IMG/VR virus record: IMGVR_UViG_3300049049_000237
Span: 112,003-176,002 of that record
Direction: 5' to 3' (one strand)
DNA from: a virus
DNA: 64,000 nucleotides
Positions within the stretch are counted from its first letter, which is position 1. Each line of letters begins with the position of its first letter. Shown here one piece after another: positions 1 through 62,592 of this stretch. A program made the translations under genes and the position numbers. The notes below the pieces were generated by a model. It did not search any database, was not told the origin of the DNA, and saw only the letters and a list, made by a program, of their open reading frames with translations.

Positions 1-519
1 GTAGTTCTCGCAGAAGTCCTTGATGAAGTTCCCGATCGGCAGGCAGATGCGCTGCGCGATCTCCGTGGCACCGAGCTGGAGGATGCCACCGCGACGCAGG
101 ATGATGAAGTTCTCATCCCGGCCCATGATGAACATGTCGCCGGGCTGGATGTCAGGTCGGTTCCCGCGGAACGAGACGTCCGTCTGGCTGCCACCCTCGG
201 GCGTGCTTCGCAGCGGCTCCCCAGTGTCCGACTGCACGACGGTGGGGGTCAGCAGGAAGCCGAGGATGAAGGGCGGCGAGGTGTCGTTCGCTCGCCCCAC
301 CATGCACACGGCGCCGACTTCTGGCAGCAGCGAGAAGCCCTCGCCGTTGTAGTTGTGGACGTACGGCGACAGGATCTGGAGGTCCTCGTACCGCTTCGAG
401 GTGGTCTCGGTGATGACCGAGACCGTGTAGTTCCTCTTGTTGACGTCGACCACCGTCGCCTGCTCGCAGACGAAGGGGAAGAACGTCGAAGTCGACGGGC
501 CGTTGCCGGTGTATCCCAT
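1..519 (-). CDS. Putative baseplate spike / gpV-Gp5 OB-fold-like protein, 3'-partial (runs off the window)
   Basis: Not in the ORF track; translated by hand as MGYTGNGPSTSTFFPFVCEQATVVDV...LLPEVGAVCMVG...PPFILGF, which fits the gpV 'P.vG..v.v...P.ilG' pattern. The ATG at 519 overlaps the RNAP stop (TGATG). Confidence 0.55.
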   Translation of the reverse strand, partial: MGYTGNGPSTSTFFPFVCEQATVVDVNKRNYTVSVITETTSKRYEDLQILSPYVHNYNGEGFSLLPEVGAVCMVGRANDTSPPFILGFLLTPTVVQSDTGEPLRSTPEGGSQTDVSFRGNRPDIQPGDMFIMGRDENFIILRRGGILQLGATEIAQRICLPIGNFIKDFCENY

Positions 520-3500
520 CAGTAACCTGCCGGACCCTGACCGTGCCCGAACTCTCGCGCGTACGCCAGACCCGGGATCGGGTGCAGGCCGTGGATGTCG
601 GACTTCTCGCCGTGGGTCGCGGCGGTGATGAGATGCTGCTGGAGGTTGTTCGTCATGAGCCGCGCGATCCAGTCCTTCTGACGACGCGCGGTCGTGGTCT
701 GCGTCGGCTCCAGGAACGGCTTCACCTGGATCGGACGCTTGCCCTTGAGCGTCGTCCGGTTGACCTCGTCGACGACCGACTTCTGAAGGTGGTCACCGCG
801 AAGGATCGACGGGTGGTCTCCGGGGTCGACGACCTGCACGGTGCTCGTCGCGTTGCGCACCGTGAGCTCGACGTGACGACGAAGGACGTCCTCCTTCTCG
901 TAGATCTTGCCGATGCGATCGACCATGAAGTCCTGCGCCGCTTCGATGCCGCGGGTCTTCAGGAGATCGCGCAGGTTCGGATCACCCTCGGTGAGCTGCT
1001 CGCCGCGCTGGAACGTGTAGCCCGGCTTGATGTGCGACTTCGGCGCGTGGCGCGCGTAGAGGGGGACGCGGCTCGTGTCGTAGTAGATCTTGAAGCCGCC
1101 CTGCGGCTGCGGCTCGATGCGCGTGACCTTGCCCTGCTTCGGGGCGACGATCGCGTCCTTCGCAGGCGACTTCTGCGCGACGCCGTACAGACCCTTCACG
1201 GTGTCGAACTCGTCGACCGCGCCGCGCTGGATCGGGACGATGCCCTGGTTGTGCGTCTGCTTGAGCATGAGCTGCGACGCACGTTCGCCGATCGCTTGCG
1301 CAGCGATGATGCCGACGTTGTCGCCGATCGCGTAGTTCGTGCCGCTCGGGTGCTTGCCCATGCAGGTCGAGCAGATGCCGTGGGGCATCCGGCACTTGAG
1401 CGGGGAGCGCACGAAGACGTGCGAGACGCCACCCTTGGAGAGGCTGCTCTGGATCTCGGGCGTGATGATCGTGCCGGCGGGCAGCGACTTGCCCGCGATC
1501 GTCACCGGCGACGCGAGGTACCGATCCACGAGGTCGCGATCGGCCGAGCTCAGGCTGATGCCCTGCTGCGTACCGCAGTCGTGTGACGTGATCGGCGAGT
1601 CGATGTTCGCCTGGATGAGCTCCTTCGTGAGCGTGCCGGGCTCGCGGACTGCGTCGGTCTTCTGGATGACGCCGCGACGCGCACCCGAGGACTGGAGGAA
1701 GTACCCACCGATGTCGATGCCCTCGGAGAACGAACGCGTGATCGGGATCTTCGACGGACGACCGAGATGATCCTCGACCAGCATCGGAGCGATCACGAGC
1801 CCCTGGAACTGCTCGCGCTTCGCCTTGATGCCCGACTGCGCCATGTCCGAGACGTTCGTCGGGTTCTCCTTGTGCTTCTCGCTGTAGATCTTGTGGAGGT
1901 TGCGCGTCGCATCCATCCAGATCTTCGTGCGTGCCTCGTCCGTATCCGCCTTGGCCGCGAGCCGCTTCGCCTCGGCGACGATCTTCTGCCGCTCTGCACG
2001 GAAGGGTTCGAGGTCCGAGAGACGCACGGTGTGTCCGCTCTCGAAGGCCATCTTGAACCCGAGCTGCGTGATGCCCTGCGTCAGAGCACCGAAGTGACCC
2101 GGCTCGGTCCGCGCCGTGTCGCGCAGCATCTCGCTGACGAACTTCTTCGTCACCGGCGTCTGGAGGTCGGTGAGGATCTTGTCCTTGTACTTCGCAGGCA
2201 CCATCGACGCGATGCGTGCGCGGCCGAGCGTCGTGCGCTTGCCCGCGATCGTCACGACGTCGTCGAGGCTCACCTTGTTGCCGAGGAACGCCTTCTCGGC
2301 ATCTTCCTTCGTCGAGAAGGTGTGGGACGTCTGCTTCTTCGGCAGCGACATGCGGTAGAGAGCGAGCAGCGCCTCGTTCGTCGGGGTGAAGAGGACCTCG
2401 CCCGTGCTCGCCGACAGCGAGCGATTCGACGGCAGGAGCTTCTTCGCTTCCTCGACCGCGCCGTGGCTGAGCGGGAGCATGAGCGCGACCGCGTCGCCGT
2501 CGATGTCGCCGCCGATCGGCGGGAGCACGAGAGGGCTCACCTTGATCGCGCGGCTGTCGGTGAGCTTCACCTTCTGCCCGATGATGCCGTACTGGTGGAG
2601 CACCGGATCGCGCTTCATCAGCACGGGGCGGTGCTCGATCTCCTGCTGAAGCATCGCCTCGGCGGTCGGCGTGCGCTGCGAGATCTCCTTCTGGGCGTCG
2701 AACGGGTTCATGCCCATCTGCGTCAGCCGGTGCGCGACCAGCGGGCGGAAGAGCTCGAACGCGATCTTCTTCGGCACGCCGATCTCGTCGGCCCCGAGCC
2801 CGGGGTCGGCGACGATCGTCGCTCGCGCCGTGTAGTCCTGCTTCTTGCCGATGATGCGGTCCTGAAAGAACCCGTCCTTCGGCATGTCGCCCGCGATCGT
2901 GTGGAGCACACCGGGCAGGTGGCGACCCTTGACCTCCTTGCCCTGGAAGTCGATGTCGAGCGCCTTCTTCCCCTTCGGCGTTGTGCCGATGAGGTTCTGC
3001 ATCTCCTGGAAGAGGTCACCCTGCGTCTTGAGCAGTCGCTTGTGCGGGATGCCTTCCTTCTTCGACTGCTCCAGCGAGGTGTTCACCATGCCCAGCCGTC
3101 GGTAGAGCTGGTTCATGGGATCGATGCGGTCCTGCCCGTCCGCGCTCTCCTGGAAGGGGCGGTAGATCGGCGGGAGCACCGGCAGGTACTTCAGCGTGTA
3201 CGCCTCCGCCGGGGTCTTGCCCTGCTCCTTGAGCGTCGAGAGCGCCTTGTACGTGAACGTCGCCCGGTTCAGGTCCGCACCCTTGAGCTTCGGGTCGTCC
3301 ATTTGGGTGCGGAGCTTCTTGAGCTCCTTGTCGATGTCGATCTTGGCGAGTGCCTCGCGGATCGCCTGCCCGCCCGACTTGCCGTTGATCGCGAGCTCGC
3401 CCGAGATGACCTTGTGCAGTAGCTGCGCTTCGTTCGCACGCTTCGCGTCCCCACCCTTGATGTTGAGCAGGTTCACGACCGCCTTCGCGAACACGGGGTT

Positions 3501-6500
3501 CGGCATCGGCTCGGCGAGCTCGATGTAGCCCCAGTTCTGCTTGTCGGTGCCGAAGATGCGGGTGTCGAAGATGCCGCCGGACTCCGGCTTCATGTTCTTC
3601 GCCATCACCGTCGCCGCGGGGTTCGTCACCTTCGCGTGCTTGCCGGCCTTCGCGAGCACCTCAGCATCCGTCATCGGCATGATCTGGATGCCGTTGCCGC
3701 GCTTCTGCGTGTTGAGCCCCGCAGAGTGCAGCATTGCGTTGAACTTCTCGTAGACGAACGGCACCTGCGGCGGCGGCAGCGGCTTGCCGTTCGCCAGCGC
3801 ATCCCAGAGAGCTTCCGCCTGCGGCTTGTCCGACTTCAGCGTCTGCATCTCGCCGAGGTTCTGACGAAGCCCCGCCGCGAGCGCGCCGTACACACCGAGC
3901 GATCCGAGACTCTGCGCGCCCGTCTCGCCACCGCCTCGCGGAACAAGGTTGGTGTCGTACTGGATCATCGGCGCGTAGTCCTTCAGGTAGAACCCGCCGT
4001 GACGCACGTGCGTCTTCTTGTCGATCTGGTGTTCGAGCTGGAAGACGTAGTGGGGCCCGACCGTGACGTCGCCGATCGTGCGACCCGTCTTCGGATCGAT
4101 GAGCGTCTCCGTCTCCTTCAGGCCGTGCTTCTTGAGCTCGTTCTGGACCTTCTTTAGGTAGTCGGTCTGTCCGTCGAAGTTCTTGACGAAGTACGGCTTG
4201 CCCGTCTTCTCGGCGATCTTGCCCGCGGCCGTCTCCAGAATCTGGCCGGGGTTCATGCGGCCGGGCACCGAGACCGGGTTGATGAGCATCTCGACGTGCT
4301 CCTTCTTCCCGCCCTTCTCGGCAAACGGCATCTCGTGGTCCGGCACGACCTGCGTGACGATGCCCTTCGCGCTGTGACGCGTGGAGACCTTCGAGCCCAC
4401 GACGAGCGGCTCGGACGTCTTCACGTGCACGACGATGTTCTTGCCCGCACGAACGACGCGCACGATCTCACCCGGGTACGGGTGGTCCCACGTCATCGCG
4501 GCGTTGCTGTACCCGATGCGCCCCTTCTTCGTGAGCTGCGCGAGCATCTTCGCGTCGAGCGAGTCGGGGTCCTTCTGCTCGCGGAGCGCGAGCACGAGAG
4601 GGTCTCCCGGCTGCACCTTGGTGCCCGGCTTGATGAGGCCATCGTCACCGATGTTCGCGAGCTGCGTCTGCGCGTACGCGTTGAGCTTGTCGTCGAGGAA
4701 GCGCTTCTTGCTGATGACGTGGTCGGACGTCACGTAGAAGGACGGCTTGAGCAAGTGCTCCGTGCCGAGCTTCTTCGCCGCGCTCTCCGAGAGGACGATG
4801 CCGTCCTCGTGGTTGGCGCCGTTGGCGAGGTAGGCGACGCGCACGTTCGTCCCGAGCGCGAGCGCACCGTCCTTCGAGAACGAGTGGTCCGCGAGGACCT
4901 GTCCTGCACGCACCGTGTCCCCGACCTTCACGGTCGGGGTGCTGTGGAGCATCGCCTTCTTGTCGTTCAGCGGGTAGTGGTCGTAGAGGTGGACCGACCG
5001 CTCCTTGCCGTCCTTGCCGACGACGATGATCTCGTCGTTCTTGATGGACTTGATGTGCCCGTCGATCGGCGACTTGTGCGAGAGGAACGTCTGCCCGATG
5101 CGCTGCTCGAAAGAGATGCCCGGGGCCGCCTCGACCTGCACACGCGGGGGTTCGCGGCCGACCACGCTGAGTGCCTGAGCCATGTGACGCGCCGACATCG
5201 TCGTGCGTCCCGCCGCGTCGTTCTGCATGAACGGGACGAGGTTCGTCTCGGTGGAGAAGACCTGCCCCGGCGTGATGAGGGTGTACTCCGCCTGCGAGAA
5301 CGGGAGCTCTTCGATCTCGCCGTTCTTGTTCGAGACGCGCACCTGGGGACCGAGCGGCTTGGGCTTGCCGCCCTCCCATCGGATCTGGTCGGGCAGGACG
5401 ACAATGGCTCGCGCAGCTTCTGCCGGCGTGAGCTCTTCGACCTTCCCCTTCTTGATGTTGTACAGACGCGCGTACGGCTTGCGGTCCTTGACCGTGATGC
5501 CGCTCGTCAGGTGGAGTGAGGTGCCTGCTCCGGAGCCCTCGGGCGTGAACACCGGATCGAGGAAGCCGAGGTGCGACGGGTCGACGGACGTGTTCGACAG
5601 CGTCACCTGATGCTCGGACTTCAGACCACCGGGGCCCATGATGGTCGTGTGGCTGCGATCGGCGAGCATCGTGACGAGGTTCGTCTGCTTCGAGTTGCTC
5701 GCGAGCGCCGTGGCGAAGACGTGGTTGATCGGCTTCTGGATGAGGTCGGGCATCACGATGTCGCGAAGCACCGACGCATTCCCTGCGCGCAGCGACTCCA
5801 TCGTCGACTTCTTGCCCAGGGACTTCAGCACGCGGCCGTGGATCTCGTTCTTCGAGGCCTTGAGGCGCTCGGCGAAGTGATCGGTCGGCGTCCAGAGCTC
5901 CTTGAACTCCAGCGAGTCGATCGGGTCCGGATGCGCTCGCTGCGCGCTCACGTCGATAAGCTTCGCGCTCGCCTTCATCAGGGCGGGACCTGAGACGGAC
6001 TCGAAGGCGTGACCCAGCGTGGTCTTCGTGACCACCGGGTCCATCTTCGTCTCCGACAGGTACTTGTTGATGGCCTGCGGCAGGTCGAGGGTGCTCGGGA
6101 CCTGCTGAGCATCCTTCATCGCCGTGTAGAAGGACTTGAGGTCGTGCTCGTAGCGCGACTTCTTCTGATTCGAGGCGAAGTTCTTCTCGCCCCACGAGGC
6201 CTTCATCTCGTCGTCGCTGACGCCCGCGGCCTTCAGCACCGAGTAGAGCGGGATCTTCCGCGCGCCGCTCTTGATGAACATGTAGCCCGTGCCGGGCTCC
6301 ATCTGGAGATCGAAGCTCTTGCCCTTCGCGAGCTGGAACTGCGCCTCGTACTCGCCCTTCTTCTCGGTCGCCTTGACGTAGGCACCGGGACGGAGACGCC
6401 ACTGGTTCGTGACGGTCTTCTCCTGCCCGCCGATGATGAAGCTGTGGTGGCGTGTGAGCTTGGGGATCTCCGCCACGCGGGTCCTCTTGCTCACGAGCAC

Positions 6501-6746
6501 CTTGCCGTCGCGATCGACCACGTCGACGTGACCGAAGACTGGAGCCGTGTACGAGCGCCCGTTCAGACGCGCGTCCATCTGGCCCTTGATGTCCTCGGTT
6601 CCGAGGTCTTCACCGCCGACCTCCAGGTTTCGCACCCGCACCTCGATGCCGGTCTTCGGATCGACGATGGGGAAGGTGCCGTTGATCTCCGCCAGGAGGC
6701 GGGTCTTCAGCTCCTCGAACTGCTTGTTCGGGTCGGTGGTGAGCAC
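519..6746 (-). CDS. rpoBC: Multisubunit-type DNA-directed RNA polymerase, fused beta-beta' (2075 aa)
   Basis: Beta motifs GPGG, GSKVSTRHSAKG, NPVSVPGRMNPGQILE, LEHQIDKKTHVR and TLKSD. Beta' motifs GIFDTRIFG, LPVLPPIYRP, GKKQDYTAR, KRDPVLH, catalytic DIDGD, DCGT...RSPLKC...CSTC and trigger-loop AAQAIGE. Confidence 0.96.
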   Translation of the reverse strand: MLTTDPNKQFEELKTRLLAEINGTFPIVDPKTGIEVRVRNLEVGGEDLGTEDIKGQMDARLNGRSYTAPVFGHVDVVDRDGKVLVSKRTRVAEIPKLTRHHSFIIGGQEKTVTNQWRLRPGAYVKATEKKGEYEAQFQLAKGKSFDLQMEPGTGYMFIKSGARKIPLYSVLKAAGVSDDEMKASWGEKNFASNQKKSRYEHDLKSFYTAMKDAQQVPSTLDLPQAINKYLSETKMDPVVTKTTLGHAFESVSGPALMKASAKLIDVSAQRAHPDPIDSLEFKELWTPTDHFAERLKASKNEIHGRVLKSLGKKSTMESLRAGNASVLRDIVMPDLIQKPINHVFATALASNSKQTNLVTMLADRSHTTIMGPGGLKSEHQVTLSNTSVDPSHLGFLDPVFTPEGSGAGTSLHLTSGITVKDRKPYARLYNIKKGKVEELTPAEAARAIVVLPDQIRWEGGKPKPLGPQVRVSNKNGEIEELPFSQAEYTLITPGQVFSTETNLVPFMQNDAAGRTTMSARHMAQALSVVGREPPRVQVEAAPGISFEQRIGQTFLSHKSPIDGHIKSIKNDEIIVVGKDGKERSVHLYDHYPLNDKKAMLHSTPTVKVGDTVRAGQVLADHSFSKDGALALGTNVRVAYLANGANHEDGIVLSESAAKKLGTEHLLKPSFYVTSDHVISKKRFLDDKLNAYAQTQLANIGDDGLIKPGTKVQPGDPLVLALREQKDPDSLDAKMLAQLTKKGRIGYSNAAMTWDHPYPGEIVRVVRAGKNIVVHVKTSEPLVVGSKVSTRHSAKGIVTQVVPDHEMPFAEKGGKKEHVEMLINPVSVPGRMNPGQILETAAGKIAEKTGKPYFVKNFDGQTDYLKKVQNELKKHGLKETETLIDPKTGRTIGDVTVGPHYVFQLEHQIDKKTHVRHGGFYLKDYAPMIQYDTNLVPRGGGETGAQSLGSLGVYGALAAGLRQNLGEMQTLKSDKPQAEALWDALANGKPLPPPQVPFVYEKFNAMLHSAGLNTQKRGNGIQIMPMTDAEVLAKAGKHAKVTNPAATVMAKNMKPESGGIFDTRIFGTDKQNWGYIELAEPMPNPVFAKAVVNLLNIKGGDAKRANEAQLLHKVISGELAINGKSGGQAIREALAKIDIDKELKKLRTQMDDPKLKGADLNRATFTYKALSTLKEQGKTPAEAYTLKYLPVLPPIYRPFQESADGQDRIDPMNQLYRRLGMVNTSLEQSKKEGIPHKRLLKTQGDLFQEMQNLIGTTPKGKKALDIDFQGKEVKGRHLPGVLHTIAGDMPKDGFFQDRIIGKKQDYTARATIVADPGLGADEIGVPKKIAFELFRPLVAHRLTQMGMNPFDAQKEISQRTPTAEAMLQQEIEHRPVLMKRDPVLHQYGIIGQKVKLTDSRAIKVSPLVLPPIGGDIDGDAVALMLPLSHGAVEEAKKLLPSNRSLSASTGEVLFTPTNEALLALYRMSLPKKQTSHTFSTKEDAEKAFLGNKVSLDDVVTIAGKRTTLGRARIASMVPAKYKDKILTDLQTPVTKKFVSEMLRDTARTEPGHFGALTQGITQLGFKMAFESGHTVRLSDLEPFRAERQKIVAEAKRLAAKADTDEARTKIWMDATRNLHKIYSEKHKENPTNVSDMAQSGIKAKREQFQGLVIAPMLVEDHLGRPSKIPITRSFSEGIDIGGYFLQSSGARRGVIQKTDAVREPGTLTKELIQANIDSPITSHDCGTQQGISLSSADRDLVDRYLASPVTIAGKSLPAGTIITPEIQSSLSKGGVSHVFVRSPLKCRMPHGICSTCMGKHPSGTNYAIGDNVGIIAAQAIGERASQLMLKQTHNQGIVPIQRGAVDEFDTVKGLYGVAQKSPAKDAIVAPKQGKVTRIEPQPQGGFKIYYDTSRVPLYARHAPKSHIKPGYTFQRGEQLTEGDPNLRDLLKTRGIEAAQDFMVDRIGKIYEKEDVLRRHVELTVRNATSTVQVVDPGDHPSILRGDHLQKSVVDEVNRTTLKGKRPIQVKPFLEPTQTTTARRQKDWIARLMTNNLQQHLITAATHGEKSDIHGLHPIPGLAYAREFGHGQGPAGY

Positions 6747-6752
6747 GCCCGC

Positions 6753-6782
6753 AGTCTACTGCTCGCGCGACGAAGGGGTCAA
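6753..6782 (-). promoter_or_regulatory. Sigma70-like promoter for the RNAP gene, probably leaderless
   Basis: TTGACC-N18-TAGACT-N6-GTG(6746), with no Shine-Dalgarno (SD) sequence. Confidence 0.65.
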
Positions 6783-6812: not shown

Positions 6813-6820
6813 CCTATCAG
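6813..6820 (+). promoter_or_regulatory. CCTATCAG motif upstream of a plus-strand operon
   Basis: Exact 8-mer repeated ahead of several operon-leading genes; followed here by GGAGG and ATG 6836. Confidence 0.5.
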
Positions 6821-11283: not shown

Positions 11284-13164
11284 TCAGCCTGCGCCCGCCA
11301 ACGACAGCCGGCGCGGCGGACGCTGTTCGGGGAGCGGACGCATGTCGACCCCGGAGCTCGTCGGCTTCACGAGGTTCTGGCGCACGAGCTCGCCGAGTTC
11401 CGGCGACGTCTTCGAGAGGTGGGTGAGGTTCTGGTCCTGCACGTCGGCGGGCATCTTGCCGATCTCTGCCGCCAGCGCCGCCGCAGTCTGTCCGAGCGGA
11501 AGTCCTGCGGGTGCCTGAGCGAGCTGAGAGCCCTGCTGCTCGGTGAACGACTGCTGCTGTTCGGCGGCCATGTTCGTCTGCGACTTCAGCGCAGCCTCCG
11601 CCATGATCTCTTGGGCCTGCGCCTGGTAGCGCGCCTGCACGACCATCGCTTCGCCCTGGATCTCCGCCTGCGCGAGCTGCTGCTTCTTCAGCGCCTCCAT
11701 GCGGATCGCCGTCTCCTTCATCTGGAGCTCGGCCTCGTCCTCGACGTTGAAGTCCATCATCGAGATGAGCGACGTGTCGCTGATCTTCTGCATCTGGTTG
11801 AGGCCCTGCGCGAAGGCCATGCGCTGGAGGTCGTCCGCCATCTTGAAGGGCTTGAACTTGGCGGTCGCCACCGGCCAGTTCAGGAAGTGACCGACGCGCT
11901 GCATCGTCCAGCGAAGCAGACGGTACTGGTTCTGCACGTTGGACAAGAAGAAGTTCTCGACCATGCGCATCGACACGCTGGTGCCGGCGTACGTGCCCTG
12001 GCCGAACACGAGGTCGATCGGGAACCCCATCCCGATCGCGATGAGCTCGCCCATCGACCGGATCTCGTTCATCAGCAGCAGGGCGCGGCCGTTCTCGCCG
12101 ATGATCTGGTGGCCGATCGGGAACGGCAGGATGCCGTAGTAGCTCGGGTCCATGCGCTGCCGAGCGAGCTCGCGCTGGATGTGCCCGCGCCAGTCGGCGA
12201 GGTTCACCGTCGAGAACGGGTCTGCACCGGAGGTCGCAGGCTGCGGGTACAGGAAGATCTGCGGGATGAGGTGCGTGAGGAGCACCGTCTCCTGCGCCTT
12301 CTTCATGATCTGCATGTAGAAGGCGTCCTTCAGCACCGGCATGAGGAGCGGGATGCCCCAGCCCATGTCCATGCTCGACAGCGCCGGCCTTCGCATGTGG
12401 AAGACCTCGCGCTTGTCGAAGACGACCAGGCGCTTCTCACGTACCGCTTCGAGGAAGAGCTGCGGCGTCGTCGCGACGATGTCCTTGCGTCCGGTCGTGA
12501 CGAGCGACTTGAACTTCGCGGACATGTCGAGCGCGTAGTCCATGCGCCCGGTCGCTTCGTTGTAGAAGATGGAGACGTTCTCCGGGTTCCACCGGATGAG
12601 CGAGATCTCCGACGCCTTCGGGTAGTAGCGGTCGTGGGCCTTCGCGAAGTTCGACTGGCCGCACTTCGGGCACGTCAGGTAGAAGCGGTGGTCCGTGTAC
12701 CGCCAGTTCCTGGTGTTCTCCTGCGCATCGATCTCCGCGAGGCATCCCTCCTGCGGACACTTGATGTACTTGCGGAACGGGAAGCTCGGCGAGACGAAGG
12801 CGTTGCCGTAGACGTAGTAGTCGAGGTTCACCTCGAACTGGTGCGTCCGGTACTGCATCACGCCGAGCATCTGCTCGCGCCACCGATCGACGACACCCTT
12901 CTCCTTGTGGGCGAAGTTGACGTCGGTGATGGGGTACTCGGCGGCCTTCGTGCAGATCGCGTTGATGATGCCGTGCGTCAGGTAGTAGTACCGGCAGAAC
13001 GCGAACAGGTTCTTGACCGACGCCGGTGTGTACGTGGACGCCTGGTCGAAGAAGGGATTGGCGAAGGGCGCGTACTGCCGCCCGAGGATGTTCGTGCGAC
13101 TGAACGAACCGCTGAGCATCGCTCCGCGGTTCTCCACGATCCCCTGCGGGCCGAAGAACGTCAT
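11284..13164 (-). CDS. Phage portal protein with Zn-ribbon insertion
   Basis: Portal-like segments DYYVYGNAFV, RWNPENV and HMRRP...GWGIPLL; Q/A-rich C-terminal coiled coil; CPQEGC...CPKC insert. Confidence 0.75.
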   Translation of the reverse strand: MTFFGPQGIVENRGAMLSGSFSRTNILGRQYAPFANPFFDQASTYTPASVKNLFAFCRYYYLTHGIINAICTKAAEYPITDVNFAHKEKGVVDRWREQMLGVMQYRTHQFEVNLDYYVYGNAFVSPSFPFRKYIKCPQEGCLAEIDAQENTRNWRYTDHRFYLTCPKCGQSNFAKAHDRYYPKASEISLIRWNPENVSIFYNEATGRMDYALDMSAKFKSLVTTGRKDIVATTPQLFLEAVREKRLVVFDKREVFHMRRPALSSMDMGWGIPLLMPVLKDAFYMQIMKKAQETVLLTHLIPQIFLYPQPATSGADPFSTVNLADWRGHIQRELARQRMDPSYYGILPFPIGHQIIGENGRALLLMNEIRSMGELIAIGMGFPIDLVFGQGTYAGTSVSMRMVENFFLSNVQNQYRLLRWTMQRVGHFLNWPVATAKFKPFKMADDLQRMAFAQGLNQMQKISDTSLISMMDFNVEDEAELQMKETAIRMEALKKQQLAQAEIQGEAMVVQARYQAQAQEIMAEAALKSQTNMAAEQQQSFTEQQGSQLAQAPAGLPLGQTAAALAAEIGKMPADVQDQNLTHLSKTSPELGELVRQNLVKPTSSGVDMRPLPEQRPPRRLSLAGAG

Positions 13165-13173
13165 GTGCGGATA

Positions 13174-14070
13174 CTACCCGATCTGCGCAGGGGCGGGACG
13201 TGATCCACCGAGAGCACGCCCGACCCGACCGCTGAGATACTCGACACCCTGACCCACGACGTTCTGCGAGAGCATCGGAAGTCCGCTGAATACGAGACCT
13301 CCGCCGATGTTGCCCACGGCACGCATCGACTTCTCGCCGAGCGATCGACCACCCGCCGCACTCTCGTCACCACGTGCGAGATCGGCCCCGCTGACTGCGA
13401 CAGGCACGCCGACGCCAGCGGCGACGCCGAGACCACCGCCGAGACGAAGCTGATCCCACACGGCCTTCGACGCAGCTCGCGGGTCCTTAGCGAAAGCCTT
13501 CACCGCTCCCGGCGCGTGGGTCATGCCGAGGTCACGCATGCGATCGCCGACATCACCTTCGGCGAAGTGAGCTCGCATGCTCGCTGCCTGCTCTGCACTG
13601 TTCACGCTGCCAGGGCTGTGCTTCGCGAGATCCTGTGCGCGCAGCGTGTCGAGATGAACTCGCTTCGCCGCAGTGCCGCTTCCCGTGATGCCGATGCGAT
13701 CGAGGTACGCTTTGTCGTTCGCTCCGTGCCCGGTGATCCCGTGCACCTGACGACGAGCGAAGTTGCCGACGCCCTCCCCTGCTCGCGCCAGCGTCGCCTT
13801 CGCGACGTCCTTCGCGCCCGAGAGCTGCGGGTTGAGCAGCATCGTGTCGCGCGCACCACGGCCGATCGCCGCGACGCCGGCACCGGCGAGGCCGCCGCGC
13901 AGCGCACCCAGCACGCCACCAGCGACGTAGTTCTTCTCGCCCTCTCCGCGAGCGGCCTCACGCGCTACGCCGAGCGCGCCGCCGAGCCCCGCCCCGATCG
14001 CAGAGGTGCTGCCCGGGTTGTGTGCGATGAACCGCCCTGCGCTGCTGAGGATGTTCGCGTGCTTGTTCAT
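13174..14070 (-). CDS. Gly/Ala-rich glycine-zipper protein, putative internal virion protein
   Basis: Repeated GxxxG helices; starts MNKHA; lies in the head module. Confidence 0.7.
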   Translation of the reverse strand: MNKHANILSSAGRFIAHNPGSTSAIGAGLGGALGVAREAARGEGEKNYVAGGVLGALRGGLAGAGVAAIGRGARDTMLLNPQLSGAKDVAKATLARAGEGVGNFARRQVHGITGHGANDKAYLDRIGITGSGTAAKRVHLDTLRAQDLAKHSPGSVNSAEQAASMRAHFAEGDVGDRMRDLGMTHAPGAVKAFAKDPRAASKAVWDQLRLGGGLGVAAGVGVPVAVSGADLARGDESAAGGRSLGEKSMRAVGNIGGGLVFSGLPMLSQNVVGQGVEYLSGRVGRALGGSRPAPAQIG

Positions 14071-16981: not shown

Positions 16982-16989
16982 CCTATCAG
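16982..16989 (+). promoter_or_regulatory. CCTATCAG motif upstream of the replication operon
   Basis: Exact 8-mer; GGAGG SD and ATG 17016 follow. Confidence 0.5.
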
Positions 16990-51878: not shown

Positions 51879-53384
51879 TCACGCCACCTGAGCCAGGCGG
51901 GCTGCGTGTCGAGCAACGAGCTCCACGAGGCCCGCCTTCTTCGTTTGCCCCTGCGCGTGCTGACGAAGCAGATCGCGAACCTGGCTGTTCAGCGTGTCCT
52001 TGTCCTTCGACATCTGGGTCAGGTACTCGTCGATCGCGCCCGGCCTCTTCGCGCCGAAGAACTTCTTGATGCGGTTGGGCTCCGGGTGCACCGACTGGTA
52101 GTGCTCGACGGCGACGCGGCGCTGGTCCTCGGGGAGATGCTCGTGGCTCTTGTAGCGGATGCCGCGAGCGATCACCTGCTCCAGCTTCTCCTTGTTCCAG
52201 TGCGGTTCGAGCACCTGGATCTGCCGGGTCCCCTTGAGGTCGAGGCCCTCGCCGCCGGCCGACGACAGGAGCAGCGCCTTGAGCTTGCCCTCGTTGTAGT
52301 CGGCGACCATGCGATCGCGCTCGCTCTTCGGCATCTCGCCGGTGAACTTCCCGTACGCGACGTTGTGCTGCTTCAGGAGCGACTCGTACGGATGAATACC
52401 AGCGTCCAGGAAGTTCGAGTAGACGAGCGCGCGATGTTGCGGATTCGACTCCAAGTTCGTCGAGAGGCGCTTGTATGCCTCCTGGATCTTCGGGCTGAGC
52501 GCAACAGCATCATCAGGCGTCATCCCTTCCTGGAAGCCGCCAGGGCTGTTCGAGATCTGACGAACCGCGCTCGCGAACGCGTTCAGGTCCTTCGACTCCT
52601 GCTTGTTCGGCGGAAGCCCCTTGCGGACCTTGTACCGCACCCACGCGGGAGCCTTGCCCATCACCGACTCGTACATCTCGCGCTGCTTCGGGTGCATCGC
52701 GACCTGGACGGTCTGATCTTCGCGCTGCGGGAAGCCCTCGGTGCTGTTCTCGTGGAAGTCCACCCAGCGACCGAGATGCTTGCCGAGCTCCTCCTGGTTC
52801 TGGAGCTCGGTGACCGCTCCGGGCTTCACGCCGCGGAACGTGCGTGCGAACCAGCCTGGGTCGACCTTGCGCTCCCGGATGTACTTCTTGTCGAACTCCT
52901 GCTGAACCGCCGGGAACACGTTCTGCCCCGAGGCGAGGTTCACGAGCGACGCGAGGTCGTACGGCCGGTTGTACGTCGGCGTGCCCGTCAGCAGCATCCG
53001 CTTCTTCGTGTCCGCCAGCCGGATCGCCTTCCGGCCCTCGGACTGCGGATCGCGAAGACGATGCGCCTCGTCGACGGTGAGTAGGTCCGACTGCGGGACC
53101 TTCTGCTTCAGCGCCACACGCTGGAGGCTGTCGATCTTGTACGAAGCCTCCGGCGTCCCTTCGATGTGCTTGCCCAGCTCCTTCTTGAAGTTCGACTGGA
53201 GCGCCGCCGGCACCACGACCGTGTTCTTCGCCTTCTGGTCTTCCGCGGTTGCGATCGCGGTGAGCGTCTTGCCCGAGCCCATGCCGTGCGCGACCACGAG
53301 GCCGGGCTGCGTGCGCATGCGCTCGACCACCCGCTGCTGATGCGGCTTGAGGTCGGTGATGATGTCGGCGAGCTTGCGCATCAC
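51879..53384 (-). CDS. SNF2-family helicase/ATPase
   Basis: HGMGSGKT, DEAH, LTGTP, GEGLDL, WN and Q..ARGIR motifs. Confidence 0.9.
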   Translation of the reverse strand: MMRKLADIITDLKPHQQRVVERMRTQPGLVVAHGMGSGKTLTAIATAEDQKAKNTVVVPAALQSNFKKELGKHIEGTPEASYKIDSLQRVALKQKVPQSDLLTVDEAHRLRDPQSEGRKAIRLADTKKRMLLTGTPTYNRPYDLASLVNLASGQNVFPAVQQEFDKKYIRERKVDPGWFARTFRGVKPGAVTELQNQEELGKHLGRWVDFHENSTEGFPQREDQTVQVAMHPKQREMYESVMGKAPAWVRYKVRKGLPPNKQESKDLNAFASAVRQISNSPGGFQEGMTPDDAVALSPKIQEAYKRLSTNLESNPQHRALVYSNFLDAGIHPYESLLKQHNVAYGKFTGEMPKSERDRMVADYNEGKLKALLLSSAGGEGLDLKGTRQIQVLEPHWNKEKLEQVIARGIRYKSHEHLPEDQRRVAVEHYQSVHPEPNRIKKFFGAKRPGAIDEYLTQMSKDKDTLNSQVRDLLRQHAQGQTKKAGLVELVARHAARLAQVA

Positions 53385-56538: not shown

Positions 56539-56766
56539 TCACGTTCCAGCCAGGAAGCTCGTGATGTCGTCAGTCACGAGCACCTCGGCCTCGGTTGTGT
56601 TCTCGCGGGAGAGCCGTTCAGATCCGGTTCGGCCACGAAGCACCGACTTCAAGAACGTAGCTTCGTCCTCGTAGCGCGAGCGCTCACGCTCGTACCACTC
56701 GTCGAGTGCTTCCTTCAGGCGATCGAGCTTCTCGTTCCTCGCCTCGGTGCGGTCATCGGCGGCCAC
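56539..56766 (-). CDS. Small acidic helical protein (75 aa)
   Basis: Start reassigned to GTG 56766, 6 nt after TATACT. Confidence 0.65.
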   Translation of the reverse strand: MAADDRTEARNEKLDRLKEALDEWYERERSRYEDEATFLKSVLRGRTGSERLSRENTTEAEVLVTDDITSFLAGT

Positions 56767-56785
56767 GGCCGAAGTATACACTGAG

Positions 56786-56817: not shown

Positions 56818-57612
56818 TCACGGCAGGTACGGCTTCGCCTTCTTGAAGATGGCCGAGCGAAGCTGGTAGACGCGGCTCTTGTTCATGCCGGTGCGCTTCG
56901 CGATTTCAGCCATCGAGGCGGGAGAGCCGTTCGAGGGGAAGAGCTGATCGAAGACCTTCTTCTCCTCGGACGTGAGCAGCGACGGCATCAGCGAGATGAT
57001 GCTGCGCATCTGGCTCGGGGCGTGCCCCAGGCTCCCGTCATCGGCCGCCTCGGGGTTCGGGTTGCCGCCGATGTAGTGCTCAGTCCGGACCTCGACCATC
57101 AGGCGCTGGATGTCGTTCGGCTTCACGTCCGGAAGCCGCTGCGAGATCTCGTGGGCTGAGGGCTCACGCCCGAGCTCGTCGTGGAGCTCGTTCTTCGCGT
57201 TCTGGACGCGCTGGTAGAGGTCGACGCGGTTCTTCGGGATGCGGGCGAAGTTGCGGTTCGCGGCCACGAAGTCGGTGACGCGCTGAAGCCCCGTGGTCAC
57301 CCACGTCTGGAGCTTGGCGCCGCCGCTGTCCGGGTTGAAGCTCTCGATGCTCTTCTTCGCTGCGAGTCGGAGCTGGGTCTCCATCGCGCCGTACGGGATC
57401 GACCCGCCGACGCCTCTGGTGCGCGTGCGCGCCTGCTTCTGGATGACGTGCTCGAACGCATCGAGCAGCGGTACGAGGTCGCGCTCCTGGCGACCTCCCG
57501 CATGCCACTTGCGCCAGAGCTCCTCGTGCGGGTCGGCAGACTTCGGCTTCGAGCCGAGCTCCTGACGAGCCGTTCTGTTGAACTCGGTGATCTTCTTGTT
57601 GGTGCTCATCAC
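56818..57612 (-). CDS. Sigma70-family RNA polymerase sigma factor (group 3, FliA/SigB-like architecture)
   Basis: Region 2 SIESFNPDSGGAKLQTWV, RIP, region 3 LGREPSAHEI, region 4 HTH MAEIAKRTGMNKSRVYQL. Confidence 0.85.
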   Translation of the reverse strand: MMSTNKKITEFNRTARQELGSKPKSADPHEELWRKWHAGGRQERDLVPLLDAFEHVIQKQARTRTRGVGGSIPYGAMETQLRLAAKKSIESFNPDSGGAKLQTWVTTGLQRVTDFVAANRNFARIPKNRVDLYQRVQNAKNELHDELGREPSAHEISQRLPDVKPNDIQRLMVEVRTEHYIGGNPNPEAADDGSLGHAPSQMRSIISLMPSLLTSEEKKVFDQLFPSNGSPASMAEIAKRTGMNKSRVYQLRSAIFKKAKPYLP

Positions 57613-57928: not shown

Positions 57929-57936
57929 CTGATAGG
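57929..57936 (-). promoter_or_regulatory. CCTATCAG motif upstream of the sigma operon
   Basis: Exact 8-mer in the 26-nt intergenic gap, 14 nt before ATG 57914. Confidence 0.5.
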
Positions 57937-58627: not shown

Positions 58628-58636
58628 GTTGGAAGC

Positions 58637-61600
58637 CTATCCGAGGATGCCGCGTGTAGCCAAGATGGCGTGGACGTAGCGAAGCACCGCGAGGCGCTTC
58701 TCCTTCCGCGTGTCCATCCGTTGAGCGCGCTGGGCATCTCGTGCAGCGCGCTGTTGGGATGCCGGATCGGAAGCGTCTTCTTCATCCATCGTCGTGAGGC
58801 CGAGGATCGTCTGCGGACGCCTCTCTCCATCGACGCTTCGGATGAGCTGACGCAGATCGTCGAAGTCGCCGAACGCACGGCTGTGGAAGCCCTCCACTCC
58901 GCGCACGACCTCGCCGTTGTCGTCGATCTCCAAGTTGGCGGTGCCGAACATGTCGACCATCGACGCGATGCGCCTCCACGTGTACGAGCGCAGGAAGTCG
59001 TCGACGTCGAAGCGGTTGCGCTTGATCGCCGAGTACGAGTCGACGAGAGACGTGACGGCCTCCTCGATCGAGCCACGTCCGGGGATCTCTCCGACGCGTG
59101 TCGAGTCGCCGGGCTCGCCGGGAGCTCCCACGACTTCCGGTCGCTGACTGTCGAGGAACTCCGGCTCGGTCTCGGGCCTCGTCACGTGCGGCTGCGTGGT
59201 GTCCCCCGTCGACGCCGTCGAACGGAGAATCCCATCAACTTCTTCTTGCGTCAGCGTCGCCGAGCGACCGGTGGGATCCACGATGATGGTGGGATCCACG
59301 ATCGAGCCCGTGCCGAAGAAGTACCCGTAGAGGGCACCGATGTTCTGGCTCCGGTAGTGCTCGCCGTACCAGGGCGGGAACGTGAGGTCCTCGGCCGGCA
59401 GATCCACCGACTCGCGTCGGTAGACACCGAGACGCTCGGTGATGCGGTACGCGCGGAAGGTCACCTCGACCTCCGTGAGCGTCGCCTCATCACCGGCGTT
59501 CCCGGTGCCCTGGGCGCTCACGAACGACGACTGCGTGCCCCCAACGCTCCCGACGAGCGCTGCGACTTCAGGAACGGAGGATGCCGGTACGGGGGTGCCC
59601 ACGATGACGCGGGTGCCCCGCGTGCGGCCCGTTCGGGGACCGGGGATGAAGAGGGGAAGCCGCGACCGCGAGACGTAGCGCTGCTGGCCCGTCGCAGATG
59701 TCGAGCGGCGTCCACGCACCGGCCGTGCTCGCTGATCGCGCTGGTACTCGTCCGTGACGTCTTCGATCCGGAGAATCTCCCCACCACGCGGACCTACCGT
59801 CCCTTCCCCCGGGGGCTCGATCATCGCGACGACAGTCCTCGTCTCGATGTTCCGAGTGCGCCGGTAGCGACGCACCTGGTATCGATCATCACCCAGGAAC
59901 TCGGTGCGCTCGTCGGTGACGCGCGCGTACGCCATCTGCACCTGCGTCGTGCCGCCCGTCTCGGCGGAGATGCTGTGCGTGATCGCTGCGGGGGTGCCGA
60001 GGTAGTGGCTGTTGGGCTGCTGCTCCGTCAGCTCGCGGACGAGCTCGTCGACGCGAGTCTCTTCGAGCTCAAGCTGCCGCTGACGCTCTTCCTCGGGGAG
60101 GTTCGAGCCGACGCCGGTGCCTTCGCCCTCGCGGCTCTGCTGCGCGATGCGGCGTGCGATCTCCAGGTCGACTTCGACATCGGAGGAGTTGATGAGGTCG
60201 CGCGACTTGTACTTGTCGACGACGAGAGCAGGGAACCCGAGGACACAGAACGGGTTGAACTTGCCGGCCAGCACGAGCTGCCTGCTGCGGAAGCGGTACT
60301 GGAAGAAGATGTGGTTCGCCGCGAGCTGCGCATACCCGACGCGCACGCCGTCGATCATGATCGAACCGCCACGCAACGCGTGCAGGTTCAAGTCGCTCAT
60401 GCGCTCGAACTTCGGGATGATCCCGGTGAAGAGCTCGTGGTCCATCATGTCGCGGACGAACCACGCCGGGGCATCAGCGAGATCGGGCGGCTCCACACCG
60501 ACACGGCCACGGCCGATGTCCGCTCCCGTGCGCACGCCGAGGACCTTGTTCGGGGCCATGTAGTAGCCGTCGAACAAGAAGTCGGAGCCGAAGAACGCGG
60601 AGTGGGTGCGCAGCATGAGCCGCGAGACCTCCTCCATGTACTGCCGGCTGTACGAGAAGTTCGAGTAGAGCTCGGGGAAGAAGACGTTGCAGCGCGGCGG
60701 CGCGACCATCCAGACGTCCGGCCGGTAGATCTGCTGGAGCAGGCGAGGCGGAGGGTCGGGCTGCTGCGTGTTGCTGCGCACGCGACGACGCACCTCGGCG
60801 TTGCAGACCTCCTCCATGTCCGCCGCGATCTGCTCGCAGAGCAACGTGAGCTCCTGCGCCTCGGGCGTCCCGGGCGGGAAGAACGTGTTGCTCCGGACGT
60901 CCATGCGCTGAGCTCGGCGCGTGGAGTTGTCCTTCATGCGGTCGAAGCGCTCCTGCGCGACGACGAACTTCTGGTGGATCTGGAGGTTGCTCACGAACGT
61001 GGTGCGCTCACGCACCGCGAGACGACGAGACAGGCCTCCTGCGCGGCCGCACGTGCGCGACAGACGATCGAGCTCGTTCGCGAGGCCGCCGTTGCGCTGC
61101 GAAAGACGACGAGCATCTTCGGGCGTCGTCGAGTCCGCCTGCCGCTGCTTCAGGTCGAGGGCCCGCTGCTTCACGAGGCGTGCTGCGCGGATGACCTCCG
61201 TGTAGCTCGACTCGCTGGTGATGGGTGCCGTCTCGAACTGCGGCCTGTTCGGGTCGACCAGCGCCGGGATGAAGTGCGGCGAGGTGACGGGAATCACCTC
61301 GTGGAAGATGTAGCGCTGGAGCGCGTTGAGGACGTCGCGGATCGAGACCTGCCGACCCAGGCCCGACAGCGCGCGGCGGAAGAGACTCCCGAAGCCGTTC
61401 GCGTGGAGCAGACGCACTTCGTTCTGCTGCTCGAACGGGTTCGCCCCAACCATCTGCGTGATCTTCAGCCGGAGCTCGGCGAGGCTGAAGAAGTCGTTCA
61501 CGCCGCGGATCGCACGCTGCCCGTACGTCACACCGCCGATCGCTTCGATGAGGTGCACGACCGCGCCGAGCAGCGTGCCCCGCAGGTTCGGGTAGCTGCG

Positions 61601-62481: not shown

Positions 62482-62518
62482 CTTGACCTCCGACGCGAGC
62501 TGGGGCACACCGATCCGC

Positions 62519-62591
62519 GGTGCGGTAGCTCAGTGGTCAGAGCGTCTGACTGTTAGCCAGAGGGTCCCTGGTTCAAGTCCAGGCCGCATCG
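62519..62591 (+). tRNA. tRNA-Asn(GTT)
   Basis: Acceptor GGTGCGG/CCGCATC, D arm GCTC/GAGC, loop CT-GTT-AG, T arm CCTGG-TTCAAGT-CCAGG, discriminator G; no encoded CCA. Confidence 0.9.
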
Positions 62592-62592
62592 T

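What the first reader, a model, noticed from the sequence alone, without database searches (positions are those of the whole stretch)
519..6746. Single-chain, streamlined beta-beta' RNA polymerase with a phage sigma factor: a self-contained transcription system
Seen: one 2075-aa ORF carries the conserved beta blocks and then the beta' blocks in cellular order, with the junction near 3690-3720 (LHSAGLNTQK to IQIMPMTDAEV). A sigma70-family gene lies at 56818-57612. Known: cellular beta plus beta' is several hundred residues longer. Fusions are known in Helicobacter and Wolbachia, phiKZ-type RNAPs are split and very divergent, and a metagenomic tailed-phage lineage with deep-branching beta/beta' has been reported (this may belong to it). 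Seen: the sigma-docking surfaces look retained (clamp helix DPMNQLYRRL, a flap-tip-like helix after PGDPLV), and no alpha or omega gene is in the window. Inference: a minimal holoenzyme of fused core plus phage sigma, possibly independent of alpha.
Basis: partly seen in the sequence, partly recalled or inferred. Interest (0 to 1): 0.9.

Follow-up and report, generated by a model that had tools for sequence, protein, structure and literature searches.

The report
One-chain phage RNA polymerase with sigma
A large uncultured phage encodes both big subunits of a bacterial-type RNA polymerase as one slimmed-down protein, plus its own sigma factor and promoter; it probably packs this enzyme into the particle to read its non-structural genes without the usual alpha and omega subunits, while the host polymerase still reads its structural genes.

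Summary
Confirmed, on the minus strand. The 2075-aa ORF is an intact beta-beta' RNA polymerase in a complete 191.7-kb phage record. The fusion is real: about 100 full-length fused homologues, with the junction modelled as a hairpin. The family forms its own clade with cultured Salmonella phage Arash and Vibrio phage D69, outside the sampled Bacteria and outside the published mReC lineage. One sigma orthologue occurs in 14 of 15 near-complete relatives, and no alpha or omega homologue was found. Two promoter classes emerge. A phage-specific motif (CTATCA) precedes non-virion genes and the sigma operon. Host-type TANNNT leaderless promoters precede virion genes and the polymerase gene itself (TTGACC-18-TAGACT, both boxes in 15/15 close relatives). 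Arash particle preparations contain the polymerase and this sigma. Best reading: a packaged, alpha-free two-protein holoenzyme for early/middle genes, with host polymerase for late genes, so not fully self-contained. The clamp keeps its fold but not the host sigma-contact residues. Alpha independence and sigma binding are inferred, not shown. I found no paper describing the family; this scan has reported it before in other genomes (e1-4036467, e1-5391222 and others).

The parts
519..6746 (-). Fused beta-beta' two-barrel RNA polymerase, 2075 aa
   Evidence: AF2 halves mean pLDDT 89 and 91, Foldseek TM up to 0.79 with bacterial beta and 0.86 with beta'
3696..6746 (-). beta part (residues 1 to about 1017): catalytic K786, K794, E647-D648, H906 kept; flap-tip helix 730-738; rifampicin-pocket residues changed
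3675..3716 (-). beta/beta' junction: last beta strand and first beta' strand joined by a two-residue turn
   Evidence: AF2 strands at 1011-1016 and 1019-1024, pLDDT 93-95; same register in all 26 family members aligned, including Arash and D69
522..3695 (-). beta' part: N-terminal zinc-binding domain deleted (Salmonella 68-99); clamp helices, bridge helix, trigger loop and second Zn site present; jaw and C-terminal tail shortened
2493..2507 (-). Catalytic aspartate triad DIDGD (GGDIDGD in place of NADFDGD); the three aspartates are invariant in the family alignments
2988..3119 (-). Clamp coiled coil (residues 1210-1253): fold kept, bacterial sigma-contact residues replaced
6753..6782 (-). Host-type sigma70 promoter of the polymerase gene: -35 TTGACC (6777-6782), 18-bp spacer, -10 TAGACT (6753-6758), 6 nt before the GTG (leaderless)
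   Evidence: both boxes present in 15 of 15 close relatives while the spacer varies
6813..6820 (+). Phage-class promoter motif CCTATCAG pointing away from the polymerase gene into a non-virion operon
   Evidence: present in 15 of 15 close relatives
16982..16988 (+). Phage-class promoter motif before the replication-gene cluster
56818..57612 (-). Sigma70-family factor (domains 2-3-4, 263 aa); canonical core-binding D..QEG and the WW pair are lost; orthologue of Arash gp10
57929..57936 (-). Phage-class motif CCTATCAG ahead of the two-gene unit that contains sigma, the one exception among virion-module genes (candidate self-activation)
   Evidence: same arrangement in G001, G004 and Arash
56539..56766 (-). 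75-aa gene directly after sigma, with homologues in 6 of 7 genomes compared; own TATACT leaderless promoter (56773-56778); candidate accessory protein
   Evidence: no Pfam or Atlas hit
13171..13176 (-). TANNNT leaderless -10 box of the portal gene (11284-13164, homologue of Arash gp204): same promoter class as the polymerase gene

Best explanation
A phage-encoded, single-chain bacterial-type RNA polymerase that works with its own diverged sigma70-family factor as a two-protein holoenzyme, probably without alpha or omega. It is made late from a host-sigma70-type leaderless promoter, together with virion proteins, packaged with its sigma, and injected. It then reads the phage-specific CTATCA promoters of non-virion (replication, metabolic and small) genes and of the sigma operon. 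Virion genes and the polymerase gene are read by host core with host sigmaA here, or with a second, canonical phage sigma in Arash and D69. SHOWN: fusion, intact active site, separate clade, sigma co-inheritance, no detectable alpha or omega, two promoter classes and their gene partition. INFERRED: that the motifs are promoters, that this sigma binds this core and reads CTATCA, packaging (from Arash), timing, and alpha independence.
For: Intact catalytic residues and bacterial-like fold. One sigma orthologue in 14 of 15 records at least 90% complete, plus Arash and D69; sigma and polymerase distances track (Mantel r 0.71). Bacterial sigma-contact residues are lost on the clamp and the matching region-2.2 signature is lost on this sigma, whereas the second sigmas of Arash and D69 keep a canonical-like region 2.2 and the WW pair. 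CTATCA occurs in 15 of 92 upstream regions against 0.68 expected. Related motifs lead the list in all 7 genomes and precede 4 of 297 virion-module genes against 131 of 1208 others, p 5e-9. In Arash 40 of 41 GGTATAA sites are on the non-virion strand and the exception precedes the sigma operon. TANNNT at -12/-13 precedes 10 of 59 virion-module genes against 3 of 202 others, p 3e-5. Arash particle mass spectrometry lists Gp206 as the most-detected protein, with Gp216 and sigma Gp10 but not the second sigma Gp196 (PMC10585845). No alpha or omega by Pfam, TIGRFAM, own HMMs or HHalign. Alpha-free two-barrel phage enzymes are proven for phiKZ (PMC8287921).
Against: No biochemical or transcript data. 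The Arash proteome lists 116 proteins including metabolic enzymes, and its authors allow carry-over. The polymerase promoter has a good -35 box and could fire early. Recalled alpha-contact positions are no less conserved than the average position (0.35 against 0.36), so sequence does not prove loss of alpha binding. Tree congruence can reflect plain co-inheritance. A very diverged alpha substitute could escape shallow profiles.
Confidence: 0.58

Rival explanations
1. T7-like order: same holoenzyme, but not packaged. Host sigmaA polymerase transcribes the polymerase gene early from its consensus promoter; the new enzyme then reads CTATCA genes as a middle class.
For: The polymerase promoter is one of only about three TANNNT promoters with a TTGAC -35 box and is conserved in 15 of 15 close relatives; sigma could be primed by read-through from the TAGGCT promoter at 58634-58639.
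Against: The gene lies in a virion operon just before a baseplate-spike-like gene (weak hit) and shares its promoter class with the portal gene; Arash particle preparations are rich in Gp206 and contain Gp10.
Confidence: 0.2
2. The fused core borrows host alpha (and perhaps omega) or an unrecognised phage protein as assembly scaffold.
For: The fold around the alpha-binding face is bacterial-like; mean retention at recalled alpha contacts equals background; a conserved 75-aa gene follows sigma.
Against: The charged bacterial alpha-contact residues (E1083, D1084, G1215, R1216, D728, R821, K1057, R1058; list from memory) are kept in 0-8% of the family; a packaged enzyme acting at entry has precedent without alpha.
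Confidence: 0.14
3. The sigma redirects host core (as in T4 or SPO1) and the phage polymerase initiates by other means.
For: This is the usual role of phage sigma factors (PMC7598289); the sigma gene lies 50 kb from the polymerase gene.
Against: Loss of the canonical core-binding signature; near-perfect co-occurrence; Arash has a separate canonical sigma for that role, and only Gp10 is listed in particles.
Confidence: 0.06
4. Assembly artefact, or an ordinary bacterial rpoBC picked up recently.
For: Gene order beta-then-beta' matches cellular operons; bacterial fusions exist (an Omnitrophota example turned up).
Against: About 100 independent full-length fused homologues and 80 IMG/VR loci; only about 25% identity to bacteria; Bacteria monophyletic without it, 100/99; AU test rejects family+Bacteria, p 0.009.
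Confidence: 0.02

Closest known systems
Salmonella phage Arash RNAP Gp206 + Gp216 with sigma Gp10 (OQ632216; PMC10585845); Vibrio phages D69, D148, D181
   Same: Same clade (100/100), same beta-beta' junction, same zinc-domain deletion, orthologous sigma (E 7e-31), related promoter motif, many shared virion genes.
   Different: Arash and D69 split beta' after the active site into two chains and carry a second canonical sigma; about 30% identity. The paper annotates and detects the proteins but, in the passages I read, does not note the fusion, promoters or mechanism.
mReC phages (Weinheimer and Aylward 2020, PMC7481178)
   Same: Tailed phages with alignable, shortened beta and beta'; deep branch; sister to this family in my trees (98/98, long-branch caveat).
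   Different: All mReC rows read list separate beta and beta' proteins; in the retrieved loci the order is beta' then beta; NADxDGD was required; often two polymerase sets; different terminase and capsid families; the paper's text does not mention sigma or alpha.
phiKZ and AR9 virion and non-virion RNAPs (PMC7598289, PMC8287921)
   Same: Two-barrel phage enzymes that lack alpha and omega and use a sigma-derived subunit.
   Different: Those are split into 4-5 very diverged chains, come in two sets, and their sigma-like subunit is not recognisable by sequence. Here one chain, one set, and a recognisable sigma70.
Bacterial RNAP holoenzyme, including natural RpoBC fusions (Helicobacter, Wolbachia; own knowledge)
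   Same: Fold, domain order, catalytic residues, flap and clamp, sigma70-family partner.
   Different: Bacterial fusions keep alpha2 and omega and near full length; this enzyme lacks the beta' zinc-binding domain and both termini, has an altered rifampicin pocket and falls outside Bacteria.
crAss-like virion RNAP, Thermus phage P23-45 RNAPs, YonO; N4 transcription programme (own knowledge, partly)
   Same: Single-chain two-barrel phage polymerases exist; N4 uses a packaged polymerase early and host sigma70 polymerase late.
   Different: Those enzymes are barely alignable to beta/beta' and use no sigma70; N4's enzyme is T7-like.

Membership tests
Two-barrel multisubunit-type RNA polymerases | DxDGD triad in the beta' barrel | tested here: met
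   D1414, D1416, D1418 invariant
Two-barrel multisubunit-type RNA polymerases | Two lysines and ED motif in the beta barrel | tested here: met
   K786, K794, E647, D648 match in 100% of family rows
Two-barrel multisubunit-type RNA polymerases | beta and beta' fold | tested here: met
   Foldseek E 1e-72 and 3e-64, TM up to 0.79 and 0.86
Two-barrel multisubunit-type RNA polymerases | RNA synthesis activity | not testable with these tools
   needs purified protein
Bacterial RpoB/RpoC | Branches inside Bacteria | tested here: not met
   (13-17 bacterial taxa; long-branch caveat)
Bacterial RpoB/RpoC | NADFDGD and the N-terminal beta' zinc-binding domain | tested here: not met
   GGDIDGD; zinc domain deleted throughout the family
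Bacterial RpoB/RpoC | Assembles on alpha2 with omega | tested here: inconclusive
   no genes found; interface conservation not decisive
mReC | Tailed-phage contig with alignable beta and beta' | tested here: met
mReC | Falls within the mReC clade | tested here: not met
   six paper contigs matched by sample id and exact length form their own clade, 100/100; AU rejects joining the short class, p 7e-5. Gut and oral mReC classes were not sampled.
mReC | NADxDGD motif; separate beta and beta' proteins | tested here: not met
   many distant members of the fused family do have NADFDGD
mReC | Capsid PF07068 and terminase PF03237 | tested here: not met
   terminase is PF05876; the capsid homologue has no Pfam hit
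phiKZ/AR9-type RNAP | Split subunits, two paralogous sets | tested here: not met
   one chain, one copy
phiKZ/AR9-type RNAP | Works without alpha and omega | not testable with these tools
   consistent with gene content only
Sigma70 family | Domains 2, 3 and 4 in order | tested here: met
Sigma70 family | Canonical region 2.2 core-binding and 2.3 WW melting residues | tested here: not met
Sigma70 family | Binds an RNAP core and directs initiation | not testable with these tools
Arash-like fused RNAP family (undescribed) | beta-beta' junction hairpin, zinc-domain deletion, gp10-type sigma, one clade | tested here: met

The most novel reading that the evidence does not exclude
The smallest sigma70-dependent bacterial-type holoenzyme: two polypeptides (a 2075-aa fused core and a 263-aa sigma), free of alpha and omega, insulated from host sigma and host core, injected from the virion and reading its own short promoter. 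It represents a large separate lineage of phage RNA polymerases with a cultured member (Arash) on which it can be tested.
Probability: 0.5. Interest if true: 0.85.

Novelty: new variant of a known kind. Interest (0 to 1): 0.68.

Why it matters
All cellular multisubunit RNA polymerases need an alpha-type assembly platform, and the known phage exceptions (phiKZ, AR9) are too diverged and fragmented to compare residue by residue. This family is alignable along its whole length, comes as one chain or in natural splits, and has a recognisable sigma70 and readable promoters. It makes two old questions directly testable: what alpha is needed for, and how a sigma-core pair becomes orthogonal. It also breaks the reviewed dichotomy that large phages have either their own polymerase or a recognisable sigma (PMC7598289), could give a compact orthogonal transcription tool, and shows that the NADxDGD and two-protein filters of the earlier survey would miss a widespread lineage.

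Tried and rejected
Plus-strand translation has stops; the gene is on the minus strand. Membership of mReC: tested with retrieved paper contigs and rejected. Alpha or omega homologue: Pfam, TIGR02027, own HMMs and HHalign against conserved gene families gave nothing above 2.6% probability; one weak alpha-CTD-like match in another genome. Alpha-interface conservation was uninformative as an average. The CCTATCA count in the window alone is marginal (5 against 1.8; 4 of 100 shuffles); the evidence is positional and genome-wide. Atlas and Pfam searches of the 75-aa gene were blank. Host assignment from MAG hits rejected: the three family hits in bacterial or archaeal assemblies look like mis-binned phage contigs, since those assemblies hold their own rpoB. 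The Rhizobium TM30 query found no IMG/VR relatives. The Lane and Darst structural paper was not held, so contact lists are from memory. Eight literature searches found no description of the family. Gene calls came from my own codon-usage caller, so some starts may be wrong.

Full report
OBSERVATION. The window is bases 112,003-176,002 of a 191,681-bp IMG/VR virus record rated 100% complete. ORF 519-6746 lies on the minus strand and gives 2075 residues without a stop. Pfam places beta domains first and beta' domains second. AlphaFold models of the two halves are confident (mean pLDDT 89 and 91) and match bacterial beta and beta' with TM-scores up to 0.79 and 0.86. The last beta strand and first beta' strand form a hairpin with a two-residue turn at window 3675-3716. 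The aspartate triad, both beta lysines, the ED pair and H906 are kept. It is the only polymerase detected in the record. The sigma gene at 56818-57612 is real and has domains 2-3-4.

THE FUSION IS REAL AND WIDESPREAD. About 100 of the best 120 homologues are full-length fused proteins of 2040-2150 aa, many on contigs of 150-200 kb. A search of 50%-identity representatives and an IMG/VR scan extend the family to 30-35% identity, still fused. Many carry inteins. Cultured relatives exist: Salmonella phage Arash (gp206 = beta plus the front of beta', gp216 = the rest) and Vibrio phages D69, D148 and D181.

WHAT WAS TRIMMED. Against Salmonella (2749 aa), most missing length is lineage-specific insertion (beta 230-360, 945-1049, 1128-1195; beta' 944-1119). 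True core losses are the beta N-terminus, the beta' N-terminus, the beta' zinc-binding domain (68-99), parts of the jaw and the C-terminal tail. The smallest bacterial pair sampled totals about 2235 aa; some mReC pairs total about 1900. Rifampicin-pocket positions differ (Q513S, D516K, H526D, S531T by alignment), which predicts natural insensitivity.

PLACEMENT. I retrieved six contigs of the mReC paper by sample id and exact length and built trees on 1093 columns with bacteria and archaea. The fused family with Arash and D69 is one clade (100/100), mReC another (100/100), Bacteria a third (100/99). AU tests reject family+Bacteria (p 0.009) and family+short mReC (p 7e-5). The two phage clades are sisters (98/98), but both stems are long, so attraction is possible. 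mReC genes are separate and, in the loci retrieved, run beta' then beta; terminase and capsid families also differ. So this is neither ordinary RpoBC nor mReC as sampled.

SIGMA. A profile of the sigma finds exactly one strong orthologue in 14 of 15 fused-polymerase records at least 90% complete, and in Arash (gp10) and D69, but not in YerA41 or TM30. Sigma and polymerase distances correlate (r 0.71), which shows co-inheritance, not binding. The clamp helices are present, but bacterial sigma-contact residues are replaced. The sigma has lost the canonical region-2.2 signature and the WW pair, while the second sigmas of Arash and D69 keep canonical-like versions. I read this as a co-evolved, orthogonal pair. 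In Arash particle preparations Gp206 is the most-detected protein, and Gp216 and Gp10 are listed, but Gp196 is not; the authors allow carry-over (PMC10585845).

ALPHA AND OMEGA. None was found in this record, in 35 records with TIGR02027, or in seven genomes with my own HMMs and HHalign. Charged bacterial alpha-contact residues recalled from memory are nearly all lost, but average retention over the recalled set equals background. Alpha independence is therefore plausible and has precedent but is not shown.

CTATCA occurs in 15 of 92 upstream regions against 0.68 expected; 18 of its 24 genome copies lie in sense orientation within 120 nt of a start. Relatives have CTATCA, GGTATAA, GGCATAA or GGGATAA. 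Pooled over seven genomes the motif precedes 4 of 297 virion-module genes and 131 of 1208 others (p 5e-9; genomes are related, so p is optimistic). The recurring exception is the sigma operon, in 4 of 7 genomes; in Arash it is the only plus-strand site of 41. A second class, TANNNT 12-13 nt before the start codon (leaderless), marks virion-module genes here (10 of 59 against 3 of 202) and in two relatives. The polymerase gene belongs to it: TTGACC, 18 bp, TAGACT, 6 nt, GTG, with both boxes kept in 15 of 15 close relatives. This is a host sigma70-type promoter, so the system is not self-contained.

MECHANISM. Most likely (0.58): made late by host polymerase, packaged with its sigma, injected, and used for non-virion genes from CTATCA promoters, with sigma boosting its own synthesis; virion genes return to host core. 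Rivals: made early and not packaged (0.20); needs host alpha or a phage substitute (0.14); sigma serves host core (0.06); artefact or recent capture (0.02). The first two readings share the same two-protein holoenzyme.

NOVELTY. Alpha-free and single-chain phage two-barrel polymerases are known, so this is a new variant of a known kind. A full-length, alignable fusion paired with a recognisable sigma70 is not described in the papers I could search, including a 2026 jumbo-phage review; subscription journals are not covered. This scan has reported the family in several other genomes; those notes agree and were not used as evidence. Interest 0.68.

Noticed in passing
Arash genome (L433-L442), e.g. 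sites at 11588 (+) and 40 sites on the minus strand: The Arash motif extends to GGTATAAG followed 4-5 nt later by a GTGTAA-like block; apparently an unreported phage promoter in a cultured phage. A weaker CTAAAAT motif sits before some plus-strand genes and may be the late promoter of its second sigma.
   Followed up: partly
window 56539-56766 (-): 75-aa charged, probably helical protein directly after sigma, with homologues in 6 of 7 genomes; could be an anti-sigma, packaging adaptor or small subunit. No database match.
   Followed up: partly
G000, G001, G004, G024 gene starts: TANNNT at exactly -12 from the start codon in 9-11 genes per genome points to leaderless mRNAs and to hosts whose primary sigma supports them; host not identified.
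   Followed up: partly
L124, L125, L194: Fused-family polymerases sit on contigs inside bacterial and archaeal genome assemblies (an unnamed bacterium, Leptolyngbyaceae, Thermoplasmata) that have their own rpoB; probably mis-binned phage DNA that could disturb rpoB-based trees.
   Followed up: partly
L137:6863-14269: A 2469-aa bacterial RpoB-RpoC fusion in an Omnitrophota MAG; nests within Bacteria, so independent of the phage fusion.
   Followed up: yes
P0028, P0081, P0195, P0269 and others: Many homologues are 2400-4700 aa; those with Pfam notes carry intein or LAGLIDADG domains.
   Followed up: no
L241, L256, L266; Arash; D69: Family members split beta' at or just after the active site while keeping the beta-beta' junction: natural split points.
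   Followed up: no
G009:157924-158463; G004:29955-30128 (L123): One relative has a second, canonical sigma like Arash; another has a weak alpha-CTD-like match (E 0.004).
   Followed up: no
window 62518-62592 (+): Single tRNA-Asn gene, the only tRNA in the record.
   Followed up: no
window 51879-53381 (-) and genome 78157-80313: Two proteins that cluster with Arash gp217, a helicase encoded next to beta'-C and abundant in Arash particles; Pfam finds two SNF2-type proteins in the genome. A packaged polymerase-recycling helicase is possible.
   Followed up: no
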